64,000 bases of DNA from a virus, in IMG/VR virus record IMGVR_UViG_3300013102_000007, positions 1 through 64,000 of that record; one strand, given 5' to 3'. Positions 2,912-60,584 of this stretch are shown piece after piece (within the stretch, counting starts at the first letter, position 1; the number at the start of each line of letters is the position of its first letter). Below the pieces are notes generated by a model, which saw only the letters and a program-made list of their open reading frames with translations, did not search any database and was not told where the DNA came from. Both the position numbers and the translations under genes were made by a program.

Positions 2912-2986
2912 TACGGGTTAACTCAGCGGTAGAGTGATACTTCAATTCGAAGTAACAAGTCATAGGTTCGAATCCTATACCCGTAG
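2912..2986 (+). tRNA. tRNA-like gene with aberrant anticodon loop
   Basis: Perfect 7-bp acceptor TACGGGT/ACCCGTA, D arm ACTC-AGCGGTA-GAGT, T arm ATAGG-TTCGAAT-CCTAT. The anticodon arm is TACTT(C)-AATTC-(G)AAGTA with no U33 and no 7-nt canonical loop. Confidence 0.55.
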
Positions 2987-3012
2987 CAAACGAAAACAAA
3001 AAATTTAAAGTT

Positions 3013-56752: not shown

Positions 56753-57097
56753 TTAGAATGGTAAATCCCCATTGTCATCACTAGTCTCCTGACTTACTTC
56801 TTCCGGCTCACCATCAACACCATCGGCAGCGTTAATTTTCCAAAGAACCAAGCTGTTGTAATAATTTGTATAATCACCTTTTGTAACAGCCCTACCACGA
56901 ATGTTAAAACCAATTGTTACTGTTTGACCTTCTTCAAATTTATCTAGCAAAGACACTTTATCTTGCATAGCTTCAAATTTAATAAATTCTGGATATAACG
57001 GATTTTCCGCATACTCAAGAATTAAATCACGTTTTTTAAACGTATCGCTAACTTGATTTGTTACATCAATAGCATAAATTTTACCTGTAATTTCCAT
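56753..57097 (-). CDS. SSB-like OB-fold protein (DUF3127-type) with acidic DLPF tail
   Basis: MEITGKI...FKKRDLILEY... layout typical of Bacteroidota DUF3127. C-terminus SDDNGDLPF mimics the SSB DDDIPF tip. Confidence 0.6.
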   Translation of the reverse strand: MEITGKIYAIDVTNQVSDTFKKRDLILEYAENPLYPEFIKFEAMQDKVSLLDKFEEGQTVTIGFNIRGRAVTKGDYTNYYNSLVLWKINAADGVDGEPEEVSQETSDDNGDLPF

Positions 57098-57122
57098 TGT
57101 TTTTAAATTTTAATTTTTATTG

Positions 57123-57193
57123 TTTGCTCTGCGAGACTCGAACTCGCATCTACTGCGGAGAAGCAGCTTTCTACCAAATTGAACTAAGAGCAA
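57123..57193 (-). tRNA. tRNA-like gene, anticodon uncertain (UCC if the 7-nt loop UCUCCGC is used)
   Basis: Acceptor TTGCTCT/AGAGCAA and T arm GCGAG-TTCGAGT-CTCGC are perfect. The anticodon arm folds either as a 7-nt loop with C33 and a 2-nt variable region, or as a 6-nt loop. Confidence 0.5.
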
Positions 57194-57349
57194 TCCATTA
57201 GTCTTTCCTAAAAGTCAACCTATCCTCCTTATATCCTCAACAACAATGCTACACTTTTCTACAAAACTTCTACGTCTTTCCGTATATCGTCATGTTGTTA
57301 CGTCTTGAATATATCTACTTTCGGTATTCGTCTATCTGAATTTGTGTTG

Positions 57350-57423
57350 TAGTTCCTGAAGGATTTGAACCTCCGACCAGATGAATATAAGTCATCCACT
57401 CTACCAGACTGAGTTAAGGAACC
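57350..57423 (-). tRNA. tRNA-Ile (anticodon UAU)
   Basis: GGTTCCT/AGGAACT acceptor, D arm ACTC-AGTCTGGTA-GAGT, anticodon arm GATGA-CTTATAT-TCATC, T loop TTCAAAT. Confidence 0.8.
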
Positions 57424-57491
57424 ATGTGCAGGTATATTATTGACGTAACATACCTACTTGAAAGTTTATTAGATTCATCCGAACCGATAAA

Positions 57492-57523
57492 CAAATATAA
57501 TAACAATAATTGAAACAAACAAA
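57492..57523 (-). promoter_or_regulatory. promoter candidate TTTG-N20-TATATTTG (minus strand)
   Basis: Reverse complement reads TTTG (57523-57520), 20-nt spacer, TATATTTG (57499-57492). Divergent from the plus-strand promoter at 57553-57584. Confidence 0.5.
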
Positions 57524-57547
57524 TTTATTTTAAAAATAATTTCATAA
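57522..57547 (+). repeat. 26-nt promoter-upstream repeat, copy 2
   Basis: Identical to 2591-2616. Confidence 0.85.
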
Positions 57548-57552
57548 CCCTA

Positions 57553-57584
57553 TTTGAATATGTAAAATTAAATTTGTACATTTG
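57553..57584 (+). promoter_or_regulatory. promoter candidate TTTG-N20-TACATTTG
   Basis: TTTG 57553-57556, 20-nt spacer, TACATTTG 57577-57584. Heads the tRNA array. Confidence 0.55.
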
Positions 57585-57685
57585 TACTGTGAATAAAAAC
57601 ATGACATATTGTAATTCGTTTAGTTGGGATCAACACCGACAGAGGATTGCTATGTTTTAAGTTTTAAATTACAAAAATATATAGA

Positions 57686-57711
57686 AGCCTCTAAGAAATT
57701 AGGGGCTTTTT
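57686..57711 (+). terminator. rho-independent terminator
   Basis: AGCCTCTAA/TTAGGGGCT hairpin followed by TTTTT. Confidence 0.65.
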
Positions 57712-57719
57712 GCATTTAT

Positions 57720-57792
57720 AGCCGTGAATGTACCAAGGTGGCGACGGAAACTCCAAATCTCTGTGCGTAAGGTTCGATTCCTTAGACGGTTG
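57720..57792 (+). tRNA. tRNA-Trp (CCA), weak D arm
   Basis: T arm TAAGG-TTCGATT-CCTTA, anticodon loop CTCCAAA, 6 of 7 acceptor pairs. The D stem pairs poorly. Confidence 0.5.
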
Positions 57793-57804
57793 CTTTTTTA
57801 AATT

Positions 57805-57877
57805 GTGGGTTAAGCTAACTTGGTAGAAGCACCAGCCTGAAAAGCTGGGGGATTAAGATCGTAACTTAAAACTCACA
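57805..57877 (+). tRNA. tRNA-Phe (GAA)
   Basis: Acceptor GTGGGTT/AACTCAC, anticodon arm CCAGC-CTGAAAA-GCTGG. T loop is ATCGTAA (A54/T58 instead of T54/A58). Confidence 0.7.
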
Positions 57878-57881
57878 CAAT

Positions 57882-57957
57882 GTACAAGTACCTAATATTG
57901 GACTTGGGGTTAGTCCGCAAAACTAATTAAATAGCAGTTCGATTCTGCTCTTGTACT
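57882..57957 (+). tRNA. tRNA-Cys (GCA) with C33
   Basis: Acceptor GTACAAG/CTTGTAC is perfect. Anticodon arm TTAGT-CCGCAAA-ACTAA. T arm AGCAG-TTCGATT-CTGCT. Confidence 0.65.
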
Positions 57958-57966
57958 CGTAAAAAT

Positions 57967-58053
57967 GGAAGATTAAACCGAGTTGGCTTGGTGACTGTTT
58001 GCTAAACAGATCGTAGTTATAAAAGCTATGGGAATCGTGATCTCAATCTTCCG
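57967..58053 (+). tRNA. tRNA-Ser (GCU), type II
   Basis: Acceptor GGAAGAT/ATCTTCC, loop TTGCTAA, long variable arm. T loop is ATCGTGA (A54/T58). Confidence 0.75.
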
Positions 58054-58064
58054 CTTAATGAAAT

Positions 58065-58146
58065 AGTAGATACTTCTCATGGGAGAAAGCAGTCTTGAAA
58101 ACTGTCGGTGCGTGAAAGCGTAGGAGTTCGATTCTTCTATCTACTG
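58065..58146 (+). tRNA. tRNA-Ser (UGA), type II
   Basis: Acceptor AGTAGAT/ATCTACT, anticodon arm GCAGT-CTTGAAA-ACTGT, long variable arm, T loop TTCGATT. Confidence 0.75.
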
Positions 58147-58154
58147 CTTAATTT

Positions 58155-58224
58155 GGGAAAACGCTAAGGTTGTCGGAAGGATTGTAACCCCTAACCGCAT
58201 AAAGTTCGAGTCTTTTCTTTCCCA
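58155..58224 (+). tRNA. 70-nt tRNA-like element without a canonical D arm
   Basis: Acceptor GGGAAA(A)/(C)TTTCCC and T loop TTCGAGT are present. The middle folds best as one long bulged hairpin (58168-58196) with loop ATTGTAA (UGU). Confidence 0.4.
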
Positions 58225-58231
58225 CTAGGTA

Positions 58232-58262
58232 TTGTAATTGTAAAAAATTATTTGTACCTTTG
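58232..58262 (+). promoter_or_regulatory. internal promoter candidate TTG-N20-TACCTTTG
   Basis: TTG 58232-58234 and TACCTTTG 58255-58262. The box ends 5 nt before the first nucleotide of the tRNA at 58267. Confidence 0.5.
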
Positions 58263-58266
58263 TATT

Positions 58267-58338
58267 GCGTGGTGCTAGTAATGGTAACTGGTCAGTCTCA
58301 TAAGCTGCACGATGAGGGTTCGAGTCCCTCCCAACGCA
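58267..58338 (+). tRNA. tRNA-Met or Ile2 (CAU)
   Basis: Anticodon loop CTCATAA, D arm TAGT-AATGGTA-ACTG, T arm GAGGG-TTCGAGT-CCCTC. The acceptor has two mismatches. Confidence 0.65.
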
Positions 58339-58384
58339 ACGATAACGGTTAGCACTATACATGAAACAGAAAGGAAGTGCAATT

Positions 58385-58457
58385 GGGGATAAAGCACAAG
58401 TGGACGTGCACCTGCTTTGCAAGCAGAAGGTTCTCGGTTCAAGGCCGAGTTTCTCCA
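58385..58457 (+). tRNA. tRNA-Ala (UGC)
   Basis: G3:U70 identity pair present, D arm GCAC/GTGC, loop TTTGCAA, T arm CTCGG-TTCAAGG-CCGAG. Confidence 0.8.
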
Positions 58458-58554
58458 CGTAGTAAGAAACAGGGGTTCGAATCCCCTACTGAATCACTTG
58501 ATTGTTGGCTCGGTTCGTTTAGGGGTGAGGACGCTTACGTTGAAATTTTAAAAT
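58458..58554 (+). other. tRNA 3' half followed by tRNA 5' half (permuted order)
   Basis: 58462-58495 reads GTAAG-AAAC-AGGGG-TTCGAAT-CCCCT-ACTGAAT-C. 58508-58545 reads GCTCGGT-TC-GTTT-AGGGGTGA-GGAC-G-CTTAC-GTTGAAA. CTTAC/GTAAG are fully complementary, and the acceptor strands pair at 6 of 7 positions. Confidence 0.5.
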
Positions 58555-58629
58555 AGCTTGTCGGTCTGGTCTGGAACAGATAGCGCATTGTCAGTGCGAA
58601 GAACACGGGTTCAAATCCCGTACGAGCTG
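58555..58629 (+). tRNA. tRNA-Asp (GUC)
   Basis: Acceptor AGCTTGT/ACGAGCT, loop TTGTCAG, T arm ACGGG-TTCAAAT-CCCGT. Confidence 0.8.
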
Positions 58630-58713
58630 CATAATCCCTTCGGTGTAAATCAAAATCCACATTAAGCAAGAGGGCAGTAAGTGGTCTGCCTCATCCGATA
58701 GTGATTTAAAATT

Positions 58714-58786
58714 GCGATTATAGCATAAATGGCAAGTGTTAGGGATTTCCAATCCTTAGATTTCGGTTCGAATCCGAATAGTCGCT
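58714..58786 (+). tRNA. tRNA-Gly (UCC)
   Basis: Acceptor GCGATTA/TAGTCGC, anticodon arm AGGGA-TTTCCAA-TCCTT, T arm TTCGG-TTCGAAT-CCGAA. Confidence 0.85.
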
Positions 58787-58791
58787 CATAA

Positions 58792-58863
58792 GCTTCTTTA
58801 ATTTAACTGGTAAAATCCCTGTCTTGTAAACAGGTGTTCAGCGTTCGAGTCGTTGTTGAAGCT
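58792..58863 (+). tRNA. tRNA-Thr (UGU)
   Basis: Anticodon arm CCTGT-CTTGTAA-ACAGG, D arm ATTT/AAAT, T arm CAGCG-TTCGAGT-CGTTG. Acceptor ends with U6.U67 and U7.U66. Confidence 0.7.
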
Positions 58864-58874
58864 CTTTAAAATTC

Positions 58875-58947
58875 GTATTTGTAGCTCAGTTGGTAGAGCA
58901 AGGCACTGTTAATGCTTAGGTCGTAGGTTCGAATCCTTCCATTTACG
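58875..58947 (+). tRNA. tRNA-Asn (GUU)
   Basis: GCTC-AGTTGGTA-GAGC D arm and loop CTGTTAA. Acceptor GTATTTG/CATTTAC has U4.U69 and U5.U68. Confidence 0.75.
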
Positions 58948-59005
58948 CAAAATCCATAAGGCAATTGTGCTAGGTGGTCGTGGGAGACACGTTAGTCCTC
59001 ACCAT

Positions 59006-59078
59006 ATCTAGGTATCTCAACTGGTAGAGAACCATCCTGATAAGATGGGTTATGAAGGTTCAACTCCTTCCTTAGATA
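59006..59078 (+). tRNA. tRNA-Ile (GAU)
   Basis: Acceptor ATCTAGG/CTTAGAT, anticodon arm CCATC-CTGATAA-GATGG, T arm GAAGG-TTCAACT-CCTTC. Confidence 0.85.
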
Positions 59079-59083
59079 CTTAT

Positions 59084-59156
59084 TCAGAATTAGTTCAATT
59101 GGTAGAACGTGGCTCTTCTAAAGTCATGGTTAGGAGTTCGAGTCTCTTATTCTGAA
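59084..59156 (+). tRNA. tRNA-Arg (UCU)
   Basis: Perfect acceptor TCAGAAT/ATTCTGA, D arm GTTC-AATTGGTA-GAAC, loop CTTCTAA. Confidence 0.9.
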
Positions 59157-59185
59157 CCACATTAGAATATATGGATTATTATATC

Positions 59186-59193
59186 TATATTTG
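59186..59193 (+). promoter_or_regulatory. -7 box TATATTTG
   Basis: Perfect TAnnTTTG inside the tRNA array. No clear -33 element. Confidence 0.35.
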
Positions 59194-59315
59194 TATTACA
59201 AAGAAATTAAAAATGTTTTCAAATTTTTTACATCAGCCGCAACGTCTGCACTTGAATAGTCGAGGTTGTATTGGTATGTAAAATTTTTTAAATTAGAAAT
59301 TTACTCATAGTTTTT

Positions 59316-59344
59316 AGCCTCGGATTTTTATTCGGGGCTTTTTT
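59316..59344 (+). terminator. rho-independent terminator
   Basis: AGCCTCGGA/TTCGGGGCT 9-bp hairpin followed by TTTTTT. Confidence 0.7.
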
Positions 59345-59349
59345 GTTAT

Positions 59350-59423
59350 CAGGATGTTCCAGCAGAGGCATACGGGCTAGACTTGGAATCTAGTGTTCGT
59401 GGGTTCGAATCCCACTATCCTGA
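59350..59423 (+). tRNA. tRNA-Pro (UGG)
   Basis: Acceptor CAGGATG/TATCCTG, anticodon arm CTAGA-CTTGGAA-TCTAG, T arm GTGGG-TTCGAAT-CCCAC. D arm irregular. Confidence 0.75.
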
Positions 59424-59433
59424 CTTTATATAA

Positions 59434-59504
59434 TGCCTTATAGCACAATGGTAGTGCGACCGACTTTGACTCGGTTTATCTAGGTTCGATCCCTAGTAGG
59501 GCAT
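59434..59504 (+). tRNA. tRNA-Gln (UUG)
   Basis: Acceptor TGCCTTA/TAGGGCA, D arm GCAC-AATGGTA-GTGC, anticodon arm ACCGA-CTTTGAC-TCGGT. Confidence 0.85.
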
Positions 59505-59506
59505 CT

Positions 59507-59579
59507 GTGCTTTTGTCCGTATTGGTAGCGGAGGGAAACTGTGAATTTCCTTGAGTCGGTTCGAATCCGACATTGCACC
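59507..59579 (+). tRNA. tRNA-His (GUG)
   Basis: Anticodon arm GGAAA-CTGTGAA-TTTCC, D arm TCCG/CGGA, discriminator C73. Acceptor GTGCTTT/ATTGCAC has U5.U68 and U6.U67. No encoded G-1. Confidence 0.75.
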
Positions 59580-59583
59580 CCAT

Positions 59584-59655
59584 GTTTCCTTCGTTTAACG
59601 GATAGGACATAGCACTACGAATGCTATAATAAAGGTTCGACTCCTTTAGGAAACT
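59584..59655 (+). tRNA. tRNA-Arg (ACG)
   Basis: Perfect acceptor GTTTCCT/AGGAAAC, anticodon arm TAGCA-CTACGAA-TGCTA, T arm AAAGG-TTCGACT-CCTTT. Confidence 0.85.
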
Positions 59656-59661
59656 CTATAT

Positions 59662-59735
59662 GCGCTTATGGTGGAACGGTATACACAATGGCTTTAGAAC
59701 CCATCCAATTCTCAGTTCGAATCTGAGTAAGCGTA
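59662..59735 (+). tRNA. tRNA with anticodon UAG (Leu by code) but short variable region
   Basis: Acceptor GCGCTTA/TAAGCGT, T arm CTCAG-TTCGAAT-CTGAG, anticodon arm ATGG(C)-TTTAGAA-(C)CCAT. 6-nt variable region, no type II arm. Confidence 0.6.
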
Positions 59736-60185
59736 CTAGGCTTTTGACCATATTAATTAGCTACCTTAATTATGGTAATTAATCTATAGTGTGTTAGCTA
59801 ATTTCATAGAGGGAATGTGAAAGAAAATGTAAGTCTACCCTGTAGTCCCTTAATTACAAGTTTTTACTAGATAAATTTACATTTTTTCTTAACTTCATAT
59901 CGGTCATTTAGTTAATCGTGGTAGGTGTAAGTCTGAGAAATTCCTATAATCCACTCTTTGTTTGTGTCCCTTCGCCCGAATACATAATGCCGTTGCTTCC
60001 TGTAAACTTAGCCACATCTTCTAGCTTTGTTCCTCACTCGTTTAGCAATGAAGTTCCCCTGTTTTAAACTTCATGGACACTCTAACTAAGTGTGTTAACT
60101 TTAATTGTTTGGCGTTAACAACCAATAGAACTGCAAACTTAAACATAATTTTGTTATAAAACAAATAAAATAGTTTAAAATAAAT

Positions 60186-60216
60186 TTTGTACCTTCATAT
60201 CCTTTTCCTACCTTAG
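60186..60216 (+). promoter_or_regulatory. promoter candidate TTTG-N19-TACCTTAG
   Basis: TTTG 60186-60189, 19-nt spacer, TACCTTAG 60209-60216. Ends 5 nt before ATG 60221. Confidence 0.5.
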
Positions 60217-60220
60217 TATT

Positions 60221-60394
60221 ATGATTGAAAATAAGAAAAAATTGGAAGGTGCCATACTAGGAGTATCTCAATGTAATTTAGCATCCATTTTAAAAAGAAT
60301 TAATCCCAAACCAATTATAGTAAAATTTGGAGAGGGTAATTATTATCTCGATTCGGAAATTATTAAAAATAATAAAAATGAAAAAATTATATAA
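60221..60394 (+). CDS. small helix-turn-helix-like protein (57 aa)
   Basis: ATG 60221 to TAA 60392-60394. ...LGVSQCNLASILKRINP... resembles a short HTH. Below the track cutoff. Overlaps the next gene by 17 nt. Confidence 0.45.
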   Translation: MIENKKKLEGAILGVSQCNLASILKRINPKPIIVKFGEGNYYLDSEIIKNNKNEKII

Positions 60395-60584
60395 AATCAG
60401 GCATAAACCTACAGGTAAATTTGTATCATTAGGATACAATTCAAAATCAACTTGGAGAATTTATCCATCAGAAGCAATTTCATATTCAAGAGAAATACAA
60501 CAAAACATGCAAGACTACGAGATTGTAGTTTATACGTATGTGGAAGATCACTCAGAACCTCTTAAAGAATTAAAACAAAAATAG
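60378..60584 (+). CDS. hypothetical protein
   Basis: First ATG of track ORF 60327-60584 (the track start is TTG). 68 aa. Confidence 0.55.
   Translation: MKKLYKIRHKPTGKFVSLGYNSKSTWRIYPSEAISYSREIQQNMQDYEIVVYTYVEDHSEPLKELKQK

What the first reader, a model, noticed from the sequence alone, without database searches (positions are those of the whole stretch)
58458..58554. Permuted tRNA halves: a 3' half lies upstream of a matching 5' half
Between tRNA-Ala and tRNA-Asp lies a 3' half: GTAAG (3' anticodon-stem strand), AAAC, T arm AGGGG-TTCGAAT-CCCCT, acceptor strand ACTGAAT, then C. After a 12-nt linker comes a 5' half: GCTCGGT, TC, D arm GTTT-AGGGGTGA-GGAC, G, CTTAC, GTTGAAA. CTTAC and GTAAG are perfectly complementary. 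The acceptor strands pair at 6 of 7 positions, two of them G.U. The RNA could therefore fold into a cloverleaf whose acceptor end is closed by the linker and whose anticodon loop is open. This is the layout of the circularly permuted tRNA genes known from the red alga Cyanidioschyzon merolae. I know of no phage example. Alternatively it is debris from a tandem duplication.
Basis: partly seen in the sequence, partly recalled or inferred. Interest (0 to 1): 0.7.

Follow-up and report, generated by a model that had tools for sequence, protein, structure and literature searches.

The report
Permuted tRNA-shaped RNA in phage
Between two tRNA genes of an uncultured crAss-like phage lies a small RNA gene with a complete tRNA core in rearranged order, an acceptor end closed by a hairpin and no anticodon loop; a second, unrelated phage contig keeps the same fold through compensating mutations, so it is most likely a tRNA look-alike RNA, not gene debris and not a working tRNA.

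Summary
At 58462-58538 (+) a tRNA 3' half lies upstream of its cognate 5' half. The two halves form 11 of 12 possible inter-half pairs. The maximum is 9 in 182 mixed combinations of real tRNA halves from the same cluster.

One homologue was found, in an unrelated phage-like contig (L097). It has the same order and an identical D arm, T loop and 4-nt variable loop. All 23 predicted pairs form in both sequences, and 11 pairs are changed on both sides. This argues strongly against the debris alternative.

The comparison also argues against a Cyanidioschyzon-type permuted tRNA gene:
- The supposed anticodon loop is not conserved (GTTGAAA versus TAGTATA, with no U33).
- The "linker" is a conserved, covarying hairpin with a hexaloop, which closes the acceptor end.
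- There is no bulge-helix-bulge motif.
- No RNA ligase, RtcB or Ro60 gene was found in the 78-kb genome.

The element order (closing stem, 4 nt, T arm, closed acceptor hairpin, D arm) is that of the tRNA-like module of bacterial YrlA Y RNAs. However, the Ro60-binding motif, an rsr gene and the Rfam score are all missing.

Best reading: a new variant of non-decoding tRNA mimic, co-transcribed with phage tRNAs. Its partner is unknown. Only two members are known.

The parts
58458..58461 (+). 4-nt leader CGTA between the discriminator of tRNA-Ala (58457) and the element
   Evidence: Not conserved in L097.
58462..58466 (+). P1 closing stem, 5' strand GTAAG (corresponds to tRNA positions 39-43)
   Evidence: Pairs 5 of 5 with 58534-58538. 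Four of the 5 pairs are changed on both sides in L097 (ACTGG/CCAGT).
58467..58470 (+). 4-nt variable-loop analogue AAAC (A44...C48)
   Evidence: Identical in L097. C48 can form the Levitt pair with G15 (58522).
58471..58487 (+). T arm AGGGG-TTCGAAT-CCCCT
   Evidence: The loop is identical in L097 and 3 of 5 stem pairs are compensated (GTAGG/CCTAC).
58488..58514 (+). Closed acceptor-like hairpin. Outer pairs 58488-92 with 58510-14; inner pairs 58494-97 with 58504-08, with bulged T58506; hexaloop TTGATT at 58498-58503.
   Evidence: Predicted de novo by RNAalifold. In L097, 4 pairs are changed on both sides, the architecture is the same and the hexaloop is GTGATA.
58515..58516 (+). TC, corresponding to U8 and C9
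   Evidence: Identical in L097.
58517..58532 (+). D arm GTTT-AGGGGTGA-GGAC (A14, G15, G18, G19 and A21 all present)
   Evidence: Part of a 23-nt block (GGTTCGTTTAGGGGTGAGGACGC) identical in L097. The D-loop architecture matches the phage's own tRNA-Arg(ACG) at 59584.
58533..58533 (+). G26 analogue
   Evidence: Identical in L097.
58534..58538 (+). P1 closing stem, 3' strand CTTAC (corresponds to tRNA positions 27-31)
58539..58554 (+). Non-conserved 3' tail GTTGAAATTTTAAAAT.
   Evidence: No similarity to the L097 tail TAGTATACTTCGAAAG. tRNA-Asp starts at 58555.
58385..58457 (+). Flanking tRNA-Ala(TGC). Its 3' processing would set the 5' end of the element.
58555..58629 (+). Flanking tRNA-Asp(GTC). 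RNase P cleavage at its 5' end would set the 3' end of the element.
58255..58262 (+). Bacteroidota-type -7 promoter motif TACCTTTG, upstream of tRNA-Met. It is the likely start of the transcription unit that contains the element.
   Evidence: This is a motif match only. The next terminator-like hairpin is at 59316-59339.

Best explanation
58462-58538 encodes a small structured RNA that I call X: a non-decoding tRNA mimic.

Structure. X contains a complete tRNA core in circularly permuted order: closing stem P1 (equivalent to the anticodon stem), a 4-nt variable loop, the T arm, an acceptor-like arm closed by a hairpin, U8-N9, the D arm, G26, and back to P1.

Likely mechanism. All four steps below are inferred; what is shown is the fold and its conservation.
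1. X is transcribed with the tRNA operon, from a promoter near 58255.
2. It is released by the normal 3' processing of tRNA-Ala and by RNase P cleavage at the 5' end of tRNA-Asp.
3. It folds into an L shape. P1 stacks on the D arm and the closed hairpin stacks on the T arm. The elbow is held by G18/G19 with U55/C56, U8-A14, G15-C48, G26-A44 and T54-A58, all of which are present and identical in both known copies.
4. It has no free CCA end and no anticodon loop, so it can be neither charged nor decode. It most likely acts by being bound by a protein that recognises the tRNA body or elbow, either as an adapter or as a decoy. This is how the tRNA-like module of bacterial YrlA Y RNAs is thought to act.

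The partner is unknown.
For: - The halves are cognate: 11 of 12 inter-half pairs, against at most 9 of 12 in 182 mixed combinations.
- An independent homologue, L097 188-263, was found with a pattern that specified only the T loop and the first 11 nt of the D-arm block. Beyond the pattern it shares the rest of a 23-nt identical D-arm block and the AAAC loop. Its closing stem is perfectly complementary but differs at 4 of 5 pairs.
- RNAalifold predicts the permuted cloverleaf de novo. For that structure, 23 of 23 pairs form in both sequences and 11 pairs are changed on both sides. Slid controls give 0-1 such pairs and 37-51% pairing.
- L097 X on its own folds into exactly this structure as its minimum-energy fold, -19.0 kcal/mol.
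- The two loci share nothing else apart from generic tRNA similarity. The contexts differ: a crAss-like phage, against a contig carrying NMN adenylyltransferase/Nudix and NAMPT genes.
- The covariance model R1 gives 99.6 and 94.7 bits to the two copies. It gives at most 26.5 bits to everything else in about 1.5 Mb, including junctions between neighbouring tRNAs.
- The 'linker' is a conserved helix with a conserved bulge and hexaloop, and the sequence after P1 is not conserved.
- The Rfam YrlA consensus has the same order of elements. YrlA is described as T arm, acceptor stem-loop, D arm, with the tRNA tertiary pairs (PMC4201824).
Against: - Only two members are known, so the covariation rests on a single pairwise comparison.
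- There are no expression data.
- For the window copy the predicted cloverleaf (-16.8 kcal/mol) is 4.7 kcal/mol less stable than an alternative fold that pairs CCCCT with the G-rich D loop.
- No Ro60/TROVE gene, no GNCGAAN0-1G motif and no Rfam YrlA hit were found. The analogy with YrlA is therefore topological only, and no binding partner can be named.
- The 7-8 bp acceptor-like helix of the window copy resembles M. smegmatis YrlA, which RNase P does cleave (PMC4201824). A two-piece form is therefore not excluded.
Confidence: 0.6

Rival explanations
1. True circularly permuted tRNA gene. The transcript's ends are joined in the anticodon loop by an RNA ligase. RNase P and RNase Z then open the acceptor end, CCA is added, and a decoding tRNA results, as in Cyanidioschyzon merolae.
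For: - The layout and complementarity fit.
- The core tRNA nucleotides are intact.
- The window copy has a 7-bp acceptor helix and a U at position 33 of GTTGAAA.
Against: - The anticodon-loop equivalent is not conserved, and L097 has A at position 33. The implied anticodons differ (TGA versus GTA) although the D arm is identical.
- The outer acceptor helix is only 4 bp in L097, and the linker is a covarying hairpin.
- There is no bulge-helix-bulge motif. The flanks are tRNAs 4 nt and 16 nt away from P1.
- No RNA ligase, RtcB or splicing endonuclease domain is found in the genome.
- A class-I tRNA body with a Ser anticodon lacks the long arm that SerRS needs (established knowledge). A normal tRNA-Ser(TGA) already exists at 58065.
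Confidence: 0.07
2. Two-piece tRNA-like RNA. RNase P cuts in the hairpin at 58507/58508 and the 3' side is trimmed and receives CCA, as shown for Mycobacterium smegmatis YrlA. This gives two base-paired fragments with a free acceptor end that might even be aminoacylated, although they could not decode.
For: - The window copy has a 7-bp acceptor-like helix, plus G58507:C58495, stacked on a 5-bp T stem. That is the main RNase P determinant.
- There is precedent in PMC4201824.
Against: - L097 has only 4 outer pairs followed by an internal loop.
- The helix continues through the would-be cleavage site.
- The hexaloop and the bulge are conserved, which suggests that the closed form is the selected one.
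Confidence: 0.12
3. Non-functional debris. A tandem duplication of a tRNA gene was followed by loss of the outer halves, or a rearrangement was caused by the homing endonucleases common in phage tRNA clusters.
For: - This is the accepted route by which permuted tRNA genes arise.
- Relatives carry HNH and PD-(D/E)XK genes inside their tRNA clusters.
- L097 has a weak colinear tRNA-like alignment that uses sequence upstream of the same T arm (18.9 bits, below the threshold of 29). It could be a decayed outer 5' half.
Against: - The permuted unit itself is what is conserved between two unrelated contigs. It has a 23-nt identical block and 11 doubly compensated pairs, including the stem that joins the two 'halves'.
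- Neutral decay would break these pairs, not compensate them.
- No other orphan halves occur in the cluster.
Confidence: 0.07
4. A genuine Y RNA that tethers a host-encoded Ro60/Rsr protein.
For: - It has the same module order as YrlA.
- YrlA-like RNAs occur in phages (PMC4201824).
Against: - In the window copy tRNAs abut P1, so there is no room for a Ro60-binding stem.
- There is no GNCGAAN0-1G motif near either copy.
- There is no TROVE gene in the phage.
- No Rfam YrlA match was found, even at E-values up to 10.
Confidence: 0.08
5. Remnant or miniature of a permuted (two-piece) tmRNA tRNA-like domain.
For: - A relative, L082, has a permuted tmRNA in the same cluster position.
- Rfam tmRNA aligns the T arm of X at 13 bits.
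Against: - There is no G3:U70 pair.
- X has a normal D stem, which tmRNA lacks.
- There is no room for a tag reading frame, because tRNA-Asp starts 16 nt after P1.
- Rfam RF04321 finds nothing here.
- X shows no sequence similarity to the L082 tmRNA.
Confidence: 0.03

Closest known systems
tRNA-like module of YrlA Y RNAs (Rfam RF02553; Chen et al. 2014, PMC4201824)
   Same: - The order of elements is the same: closing stem that stands in for the anticodon stem, short variable region, T arm, acceptor-like stem-loop with no free CCA end, two nucleotides, D arm.
- The tRNA tertiary-pair nucleotides are kept.
- D- and T-arm sequences are the most conserved parts, while the acceptor stem-loop is conserved in structure only.
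- YrlA also occurs in some phages.
   Different: - There is no Ro60-binding stem or GNCGAAN0-1G motif. In the window the closing stem is only 5 bp and is flanked directly by tRNAs.
- There is no rsr/TROVE gene.
- There is no Rfam hit.
- The D-arm sequence (GUUU-AGGGGUGA-GGAC) differs from the YrlA consensus (GCUC-AauuuGGUA-GAGC).
- X is embedded in a tRNA operon.
Circularly permuted tRNA genes of Cyanidioschyzon merolae and other algae, and of Thermofilum pendens (from my own knowledge; Soma et al. 2007)
   Same: The 3' half lies upstream of the cognate 5' half on the same strand, and the two together give a full cloverleaf.
   Different: - Those genes have a bulge-helix-bulge junction, a defined anticodon loop and a disposable linker, and they are matured by a splicing endonuclease and a ligase.
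- Here the loop is not conserved, the linker is a conserved hairpin, and the organism is a bacteriophage.
Permuted (two-piece) tmRNA genes (Rfam RF04321)
   Same: - It is a permuted tRNA-like gene in bacteria and phages, with the T arm and 3' acceptor strand upstream of the 5' acceptor strand.
- One is present in the tRNA cluster of a related crAss-like contig (L082).
   Different: tmRNA has G3:U70, no D stem, a tag reading frame and pseudoknots. X has none of these and is only 77 nt long.
Phage T4 RNAC and RNAD (species 1 and 2 RNAs)
   Same: They are small stable non-tRNA RNAs encoded inside a phage tRNA cluster, with tRNA-like parts and unknown function (PMC3014915).
   Different: The T4 RNAs are colinear, with the T arm and acceptor strand at the 3' end. 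They are longer (119 and 139 nt) and are not matched by model R1.

Membership tests
Circularly permuted tRNA gene (C. merolae type) | The 3' half lies upstream of the cognate 5' half on one strand, and the halves together form a cloverleaf. | tested here: met
Circularly permuted tRNA gene (C. merolae type) | Leader and trailer form a bulge-helix-bulge motif that defines the joining site. | tested here: not met
   In the window the flanks are CGTA and GTTGAAATTTTAAAAT, bounded by tRNAs. In L097 there is only a one-sided 7-nt loop next to a possible GAAG/CTTC helix. Neither forms two 3-nt bulges around a 4-bp helix.
Circularly permuted tRNA gene (C. merolae type) | After joining, a 7-nt anticodon loop with U33 and a conserved anticodon. 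| tested here: not met
   GTTGAAA in the window versus TAGTATA in L097.
Circularly permuted tRNA gene (C. merolae type) | A 7-bp acceptor stem joined by a dispensable spacer that RNase P and RNase Z remove. | tested here: not met
   There are 6 of 7 pairs in the window but only 4 outer pairs in L097. The spacer forms a covarying helix with a conserved bulge and hexaloop.
Circularly permuted tRNA gene (C. merolae type) | A circular intermediate and a mature, aminoacylated tRNA. | not testable with these tools
   Needs RNA data.
YrlA Y RNA (RF02553) | tRNA-like module in the order closing stem, variable region, T arm, acceptor stem-loop, D arm. | tested here: met
   The Rfam consensus structure compared with the RNAalifold structure of X; PMC4201824.
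YrlA Y RNA (RF02553) | Nucleotides for the tRNA tertiary interactions (8-14, 15-48, 18-55, 19-56, 54-58, 26-44). | tested here: met
   All are present and identical in both copies.
YrlA Y RNA (RF02553) | GNCGAAN0-1G motif and Ro60-binding stem formed by the RNA ends. | tested here: not met
   The motif is absent from window 57000-60400 and from L097 1-470. tRNAs abut P1 in the window.
YrlA Y RNA (RF02553) | Encoded next to an rsr (Ro60, TROVE domain) gene. | tested here: not met
   No TROVE hit in the precomputed Pfam lists for contig 636-78223, nor in direct Pfam scans.
YrlA Y RNA (RF02553) | Reaches the Rfam gathering score of 69 bits. | tested here: not met
   No YrlA match at X, even at E-values up to 10.
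Permuted tmRNA (RF04321) | T arm and 3' acceptor strand upstream of the 5' acceptor strand. | tested here: met
Permuted tmRNA (RF04321) | G3:U70 alanine identity pair. | tested here: not met
   Position 3-70 is U-A and position 2-71 is C.A. By contrast, L082 has GGGGATG/CATCTCC.
Permuted tmRNA (RF04321) | Resume codon and tag reading frame downstream of the 5' tRNA-like part. | tested here: not met
   tRNA-Asp begins 16 nt after P1.
Permuted tmRNA (RF04321) | Reaches the Rfam gathering score of 47 bits. | tested here: not met
Canonical tRNA (RF00005) | Colinear cloverleaf that reaches 29 bits or is called by ARAGORN. | tested here: not met

The most novel reading that the evidence does not exclude
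The element is a true circularly permuted, or split, tRNA gene of a bacteriophage. Host RNase P and RNase Z, together with a host RNA ligase such as RtcB, convert it into a chargeable tRNA-like molecule. This would be the first permuted tRNA outside eukaryotic algae and archaea. A somewhat less exotic reading, which I rate more likely at about 0.25, is that X founds a new class of phage-encoded tRNA-body decoys. These would titrate a host factor that recognises tRNA, for example a tRNA-targeting defence nuclease.
Probability: 0.07. Interest if true: 0.9.

Novelty: new variant of a known kind. Interest (0 to 1): 0.62.

Why it matters
Phage tRNA clusters are usually read as sets of decoding tRNAs. 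Here one slot is occupied by a conserved RNA that keeps the whole tRNA core but can be neither charged nor decode.

If that is right, three things follow:
- It extends tRNA mimicry of the YrlA type to phages that have no Ro60.
- It suggests that the tRNA-shaped module works on its own, with a different partner.
- It gives a compact 77-nt candidate for a phage RNA that engages host tRNA-binding machinery: processing or modification enzymes, or tRNA-directed defence systems.

It also has a practical side. Such elements are invisible to tRNA finders and to Rfam, and they can be mistaken for junctions between two neighbouring tRNAs or for gene debris.

Tried and rejected
Searches for relatives that found nothing useful:
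- INPHARED phages with the tRNA cluster, near and distant modes, gave nothing beyond generic tRNA hits. With X, its 5' half and the L097 region the result was the same: only T-arm matches.
- IMG/VR exact and degenerate patterns for either half, for the joined anticodon stem-loop, for the D arm and for the permuted layout gave no true hit.
- The GTDB genome scan for the D-arm 18-mer gave two chance hits.
- 80 ribonucleotide reductase-anchored loci from IMG/VR were not syntenic, had no tRNAs and had no X.
- The terminase has no relative in IMG/VR. The closest terminase is 68% identical.
- Five related crAss-like contigs were fetched: L082, L083, L110, L112 and L114. Some have tRNA clusters at the same place, but none has X.
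- Relatives of the L097 contig (L105-L107) have neither tRNAs nor X at that place.

Ideas tested and dropped:
- ARAGORN acceptance as proof of cognate halves: it also accepts chimeras of neighbouring tRNAs.
- A better partner half elsewhere in the window: none exists.
- Other orphan halves in the gaps of the cluster: none. The gaps hold low-scoring but colinear tRNAs.
- Phage-encoded RNA ligase, RtcB, splicing endonuclease or Ro60: none found.
- Ro60-binding motif: absent.
- Permuted tmRNA: rejected.
- T4 RNAC and RNAD as homologues: rejected.
- The upstream 'colinear' 5' half in L097: my estimate is that its pairing is within chance once free spacing is allowed. I treat it as only a possible remnant.

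Full report
**Context.** The window is part of a 78,471-bp metagenomic contig (ENA ERZ27252506 k141_2765687; the window covers contig positions 4325-68324). Its terminase is 28% identical to those of Flavobacterium and Cellulophaga phages. Related contigs carry crAss-type marker domains. Promoter motifs of the Bacteroidota type (TAnnTTTG) precede the tRNA blocks. This is therefore a crAss-like phage of a Bacteroidota host. It carries a cluster of about 22 tRNA genes at 57720-59736. No close relative exists in INPHARED, IMG/VR or the protein collection. The nearest terminase is 68% identical.

**The observation.** It reads: GTAAG, AAAC, T arm, ACTGAAT, C, 12 nt, GCTCGGT, TC, D arm, G, CTTAC, GTTGAAA.

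The 5' and 3' halves joined artificially are called a tRNA by ARAGORN. That alone is weak evidence, because ARAGORN also accepted four chimeras of neighbouring real tRNAs. I therefore counted inter-half pairs directly. The element, which I call X, has 11 of 12. The maximum among 182 cross-combinations of halves from 14 real tRNAs of the cluster is 9, and those tRNAs score 9-12 with their own halves. The halves are cognate. The D arm and the 4-nt variable loop resemble the phage's own tRNA-Arg(ACG).

**A second copy.** A scan of JGI metagenome contigs used a pattern that fixed only the T loop and the first 11 nt of the D-arm block (GGTTCGAATCC, 20-40 nt, TCGTTTAGGGG). It returned four chance hits and one real one: L097, a 1,494-bp contig that is also present in ENA and Logan assemblies. 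Compared with the window:
- The order 3' half, connector, 5' half is the same.
- A 23-nt block covering the D arm is identical, as are the AAAC variable loop and the T loop.
- The closing stem is CCAGT/ACTGG where the window has CTTAC/GTAAG.
- The T stem is GTAGG/CCTAC where the window has AGGGG/CCCCT.

The rest of L097 is unrelated to the window. It carries tRNA-Met and NMN adenylyltransferase/Nudix and NAMPT genes. The nearest homologue of the Nudix-domain protein (44% identical) sits in a 172-kb phage-like contig.

**Structure.**
- RNAalifold predicts a permuted cloverleaf de novo from the two sequences. It consists of P1 (5 bp), the T arm, a long closed hairpin and the D arm.
- For that structure all 23 pairs form in both sequences, and 11 pairs are changed on both sides. 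Sliding the partners by 1-3 columns gives 0-1 such pairs and 37-51% pairing.
- The 'linker' is the top of the acceptor-like arm. In both copies four or five outer pairs are followed by a mismatch, four more pairs with a bulged U at the same place, and a hexaloop (TTGATT in the window, GTGATA in L097).
- L097 X folds into exactly this structure as its minimum-energy fold.
- The window copy's cloverleaf is 4.7 kcal/mol above an alternative fold. This is a caveat.
- All nucleotides needed for the tRNA tertiary interactions (U8-A14, G15-C48, G18/G19 with U55/C56, T54-A58, G26-A44) are present and invariant.
- A covariance model built from the pair scores the two copies at 95-100 bits. Nothing else in about 1.5 Mb of fetched phage DNA exceeds 26.5 bits. 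Junctions between two neighbouring tRNAs reach at most 25 bits.

**What this excludes.**
- Debris from a duplication would not keep the stem that joins the 'halves' through four compensated changes. It would also not keep a 23-nt block identical in an unrelated genome.
- A permuted gene for a decoding tRNA would keep an anticodon loop and a 7-bp acceptor stem. Here the seven bases after P1 are unrelated (GTTGAAA versus TAGTATA, with A at position 33 in L097). The outer acceptor helix has only four pairs in L097. The connector is itself a selected hairpin, and no bulge-helix-bulge junction can form.
- No RNA ligase, RtcB, splicing endonuclease or Ro60 domain is detectable in the whole contig.
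- Rfam places nothing on X apart from a 13-bit T-arm fragment of tmRNA.

**What it resembles.** The Rfam YrlA consensus shows the same order: closing stem, 4 nt, T arm, acceptor stem-loop, 2 nt, D arm, closing stem. Chen et al. (PMC4201824) describe YrlA in three points that match X:
- It is a tRNA mimic whose T and D arms are the most conserved parts.
- Its acceptor stem-loop is conserved only in structure.
- It retains the tRNA tertiary pairs.

They also show that the M. smegmatis YrlA, which has a 7-bp acceptor stem, is cut by RNase P and receives CCA.

X fails the other defining features of YrlA. It has no GNCGAAN0-1G motif, no room for a Ro60-binding stem in the window, no rsr gene and no Rfam score. 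I therefore do not file X as a YrlA. I regard it as a stand-alone tRNA-mimic module of the same topology.

Permuted tmRNA is the other permuted tRNA-like gene known in bacteria. A related contig, L082, carries one in its tRNA cluster. X, however, lacks G3:U70 and a tag frame, and it has a normal D stem. T4 RNAC and RNAD are a looser precedent for non-tRNA stable RNAs in phage tRNA clusters.

**Mechanism proposed.** The fold and its conservation are shown; every mechanistic step below is inferred.
1. X is co-transcribed with Met, Ala, Asp and the following tRNAs, from a promoter near 58255. The next terminator-like hairpin is at 59316-59339.
2. It is released by processing of the flanking tRNAs.
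3. It folds into an L shape with an intact elbow, a capped acceptor end and an open, anticodon-less end.
4. It acts by binding a factor that recognises the tRNA body, as an adapter or as a decoy.

**Confidence.**
- About 0.6 for the stand-alone, closed-hairpin, non-decoding tRNA mimic as the best explanation.
- 0.12 for an RNase P-cleaved two-piece form.
- About 0.07 each for a true permuted tRNA and for debris.
- About 0.08 for a Ro60-tethering Y RNA.
- 0.03 for a tmRNA remnant.

**Limits.** The family has only two members, there are no RNA data, and the database scans could use only exact patterns.

Noticed in passing
L082 4764-4991 (-): A related crAss-like contig (terminase 62% identical) carries a permuted (two-piece) tmRNA gene inside its tRNA cluster. 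It scores 49.3 bits on Rfam RF04321 (threshold 47). ARAGORN gives an acceptor GGGGATG/CATCTCC with G3:U70 and the tag GKIVTMSTRSLRAVA*. The window phage has no tmRNA.
   Followed up: partly
L097 151-221 (+): Sequence upstream of the L097 copy aligns weakly to the Rfam tRNA model as a colinear tRNA that uses the same T arm: 18.9 bits against a threshold of 29, with an 11-nt 'anticodon loop' and no D stem. It may be a decayed outer 5' half left from the duplication that created the permuted gene, or it may be chance.
   Followed up: partly
L101 2219-2273 (+): An Acidobacteriota MAG contains the 18-nt D-arm sequence. About 12 nt upstream lies AAACAGGGTTCGAGTCC, which is similar to X's AAAC plus T arm (3 of 5,000 shuffles score as high). 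Both lie inside an ORF for a P-loop ATPase. No hairpins can form there. This is probably chance, but it remains unexplained.
   Followed up: partly
window 57122-57193 (-): A tRNA (Rfam 44 bits) to which ARAGORN cannot assign an anticodon ('tRNA-???', anticodon 'ct'). It appears to have an irregular anticodon loop.
   Followed up: no
window 2912-2987 (+): A solitary tRNA 55 kb from the cluster (Rfam 44.6 bits). ARAGORN calls it Asn with the unusual anticodon ATT. Its anticodon arm reads ACTTC-AATTC-GAAGT, so the loop may not be standard.
   Followed up: no
window 57720-57793, 58155-58225 and about 57968-58056 (+): Further tRNAs that ARAGORN misses at default settings. Trp(CCA) and Tyr(GTA) appear only at a relaxed threshold. 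A Ser(GCT)-like gene with a long variable arm is seen by eye only. Many tRNAs of this cluster have mismatched acceptor stems.
   Followed up: partly
window 59737-60330: A 594-nt stretch with no ORF after the last tRNA and before the ribonucleotide reductase module. No Rfam match.
   Followed up: no
P0006, P0026, P0032, P0079, P0083, P0112 (terminase homologues): Several homologues of the large terminase are about 350 aa longer and carry intein/homing-endonuclease domains (PF05203, PF05204, PF14528). Inteins in the terminase therefore recur in this phage group.
   Followed up: no
L092 1361-1564 and L093 20308-20480 (contig ends, outside the window): DUF551-like ORFs lie near both ends of the 78-kb contig. 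This suggests a terminally redundant or circularly closed, complete genome.
   Followed up: no
L105 3153-7635: The 172-kb phage-like contig holding the nearest homologue of the L097 Nudix gene carries an RNA-repair gene set just upstream. It includes an Rnl2-type RNA ligase, a T4 Rnl1-type RNA ligase, an AAA_33 kinase-like protein, a PolyA_pol-family (CCA-adding enzyme family) protein and a tRNA_bind protein. There are no tRNAs and no X in the 20 kb fetched.
   Followed up: no
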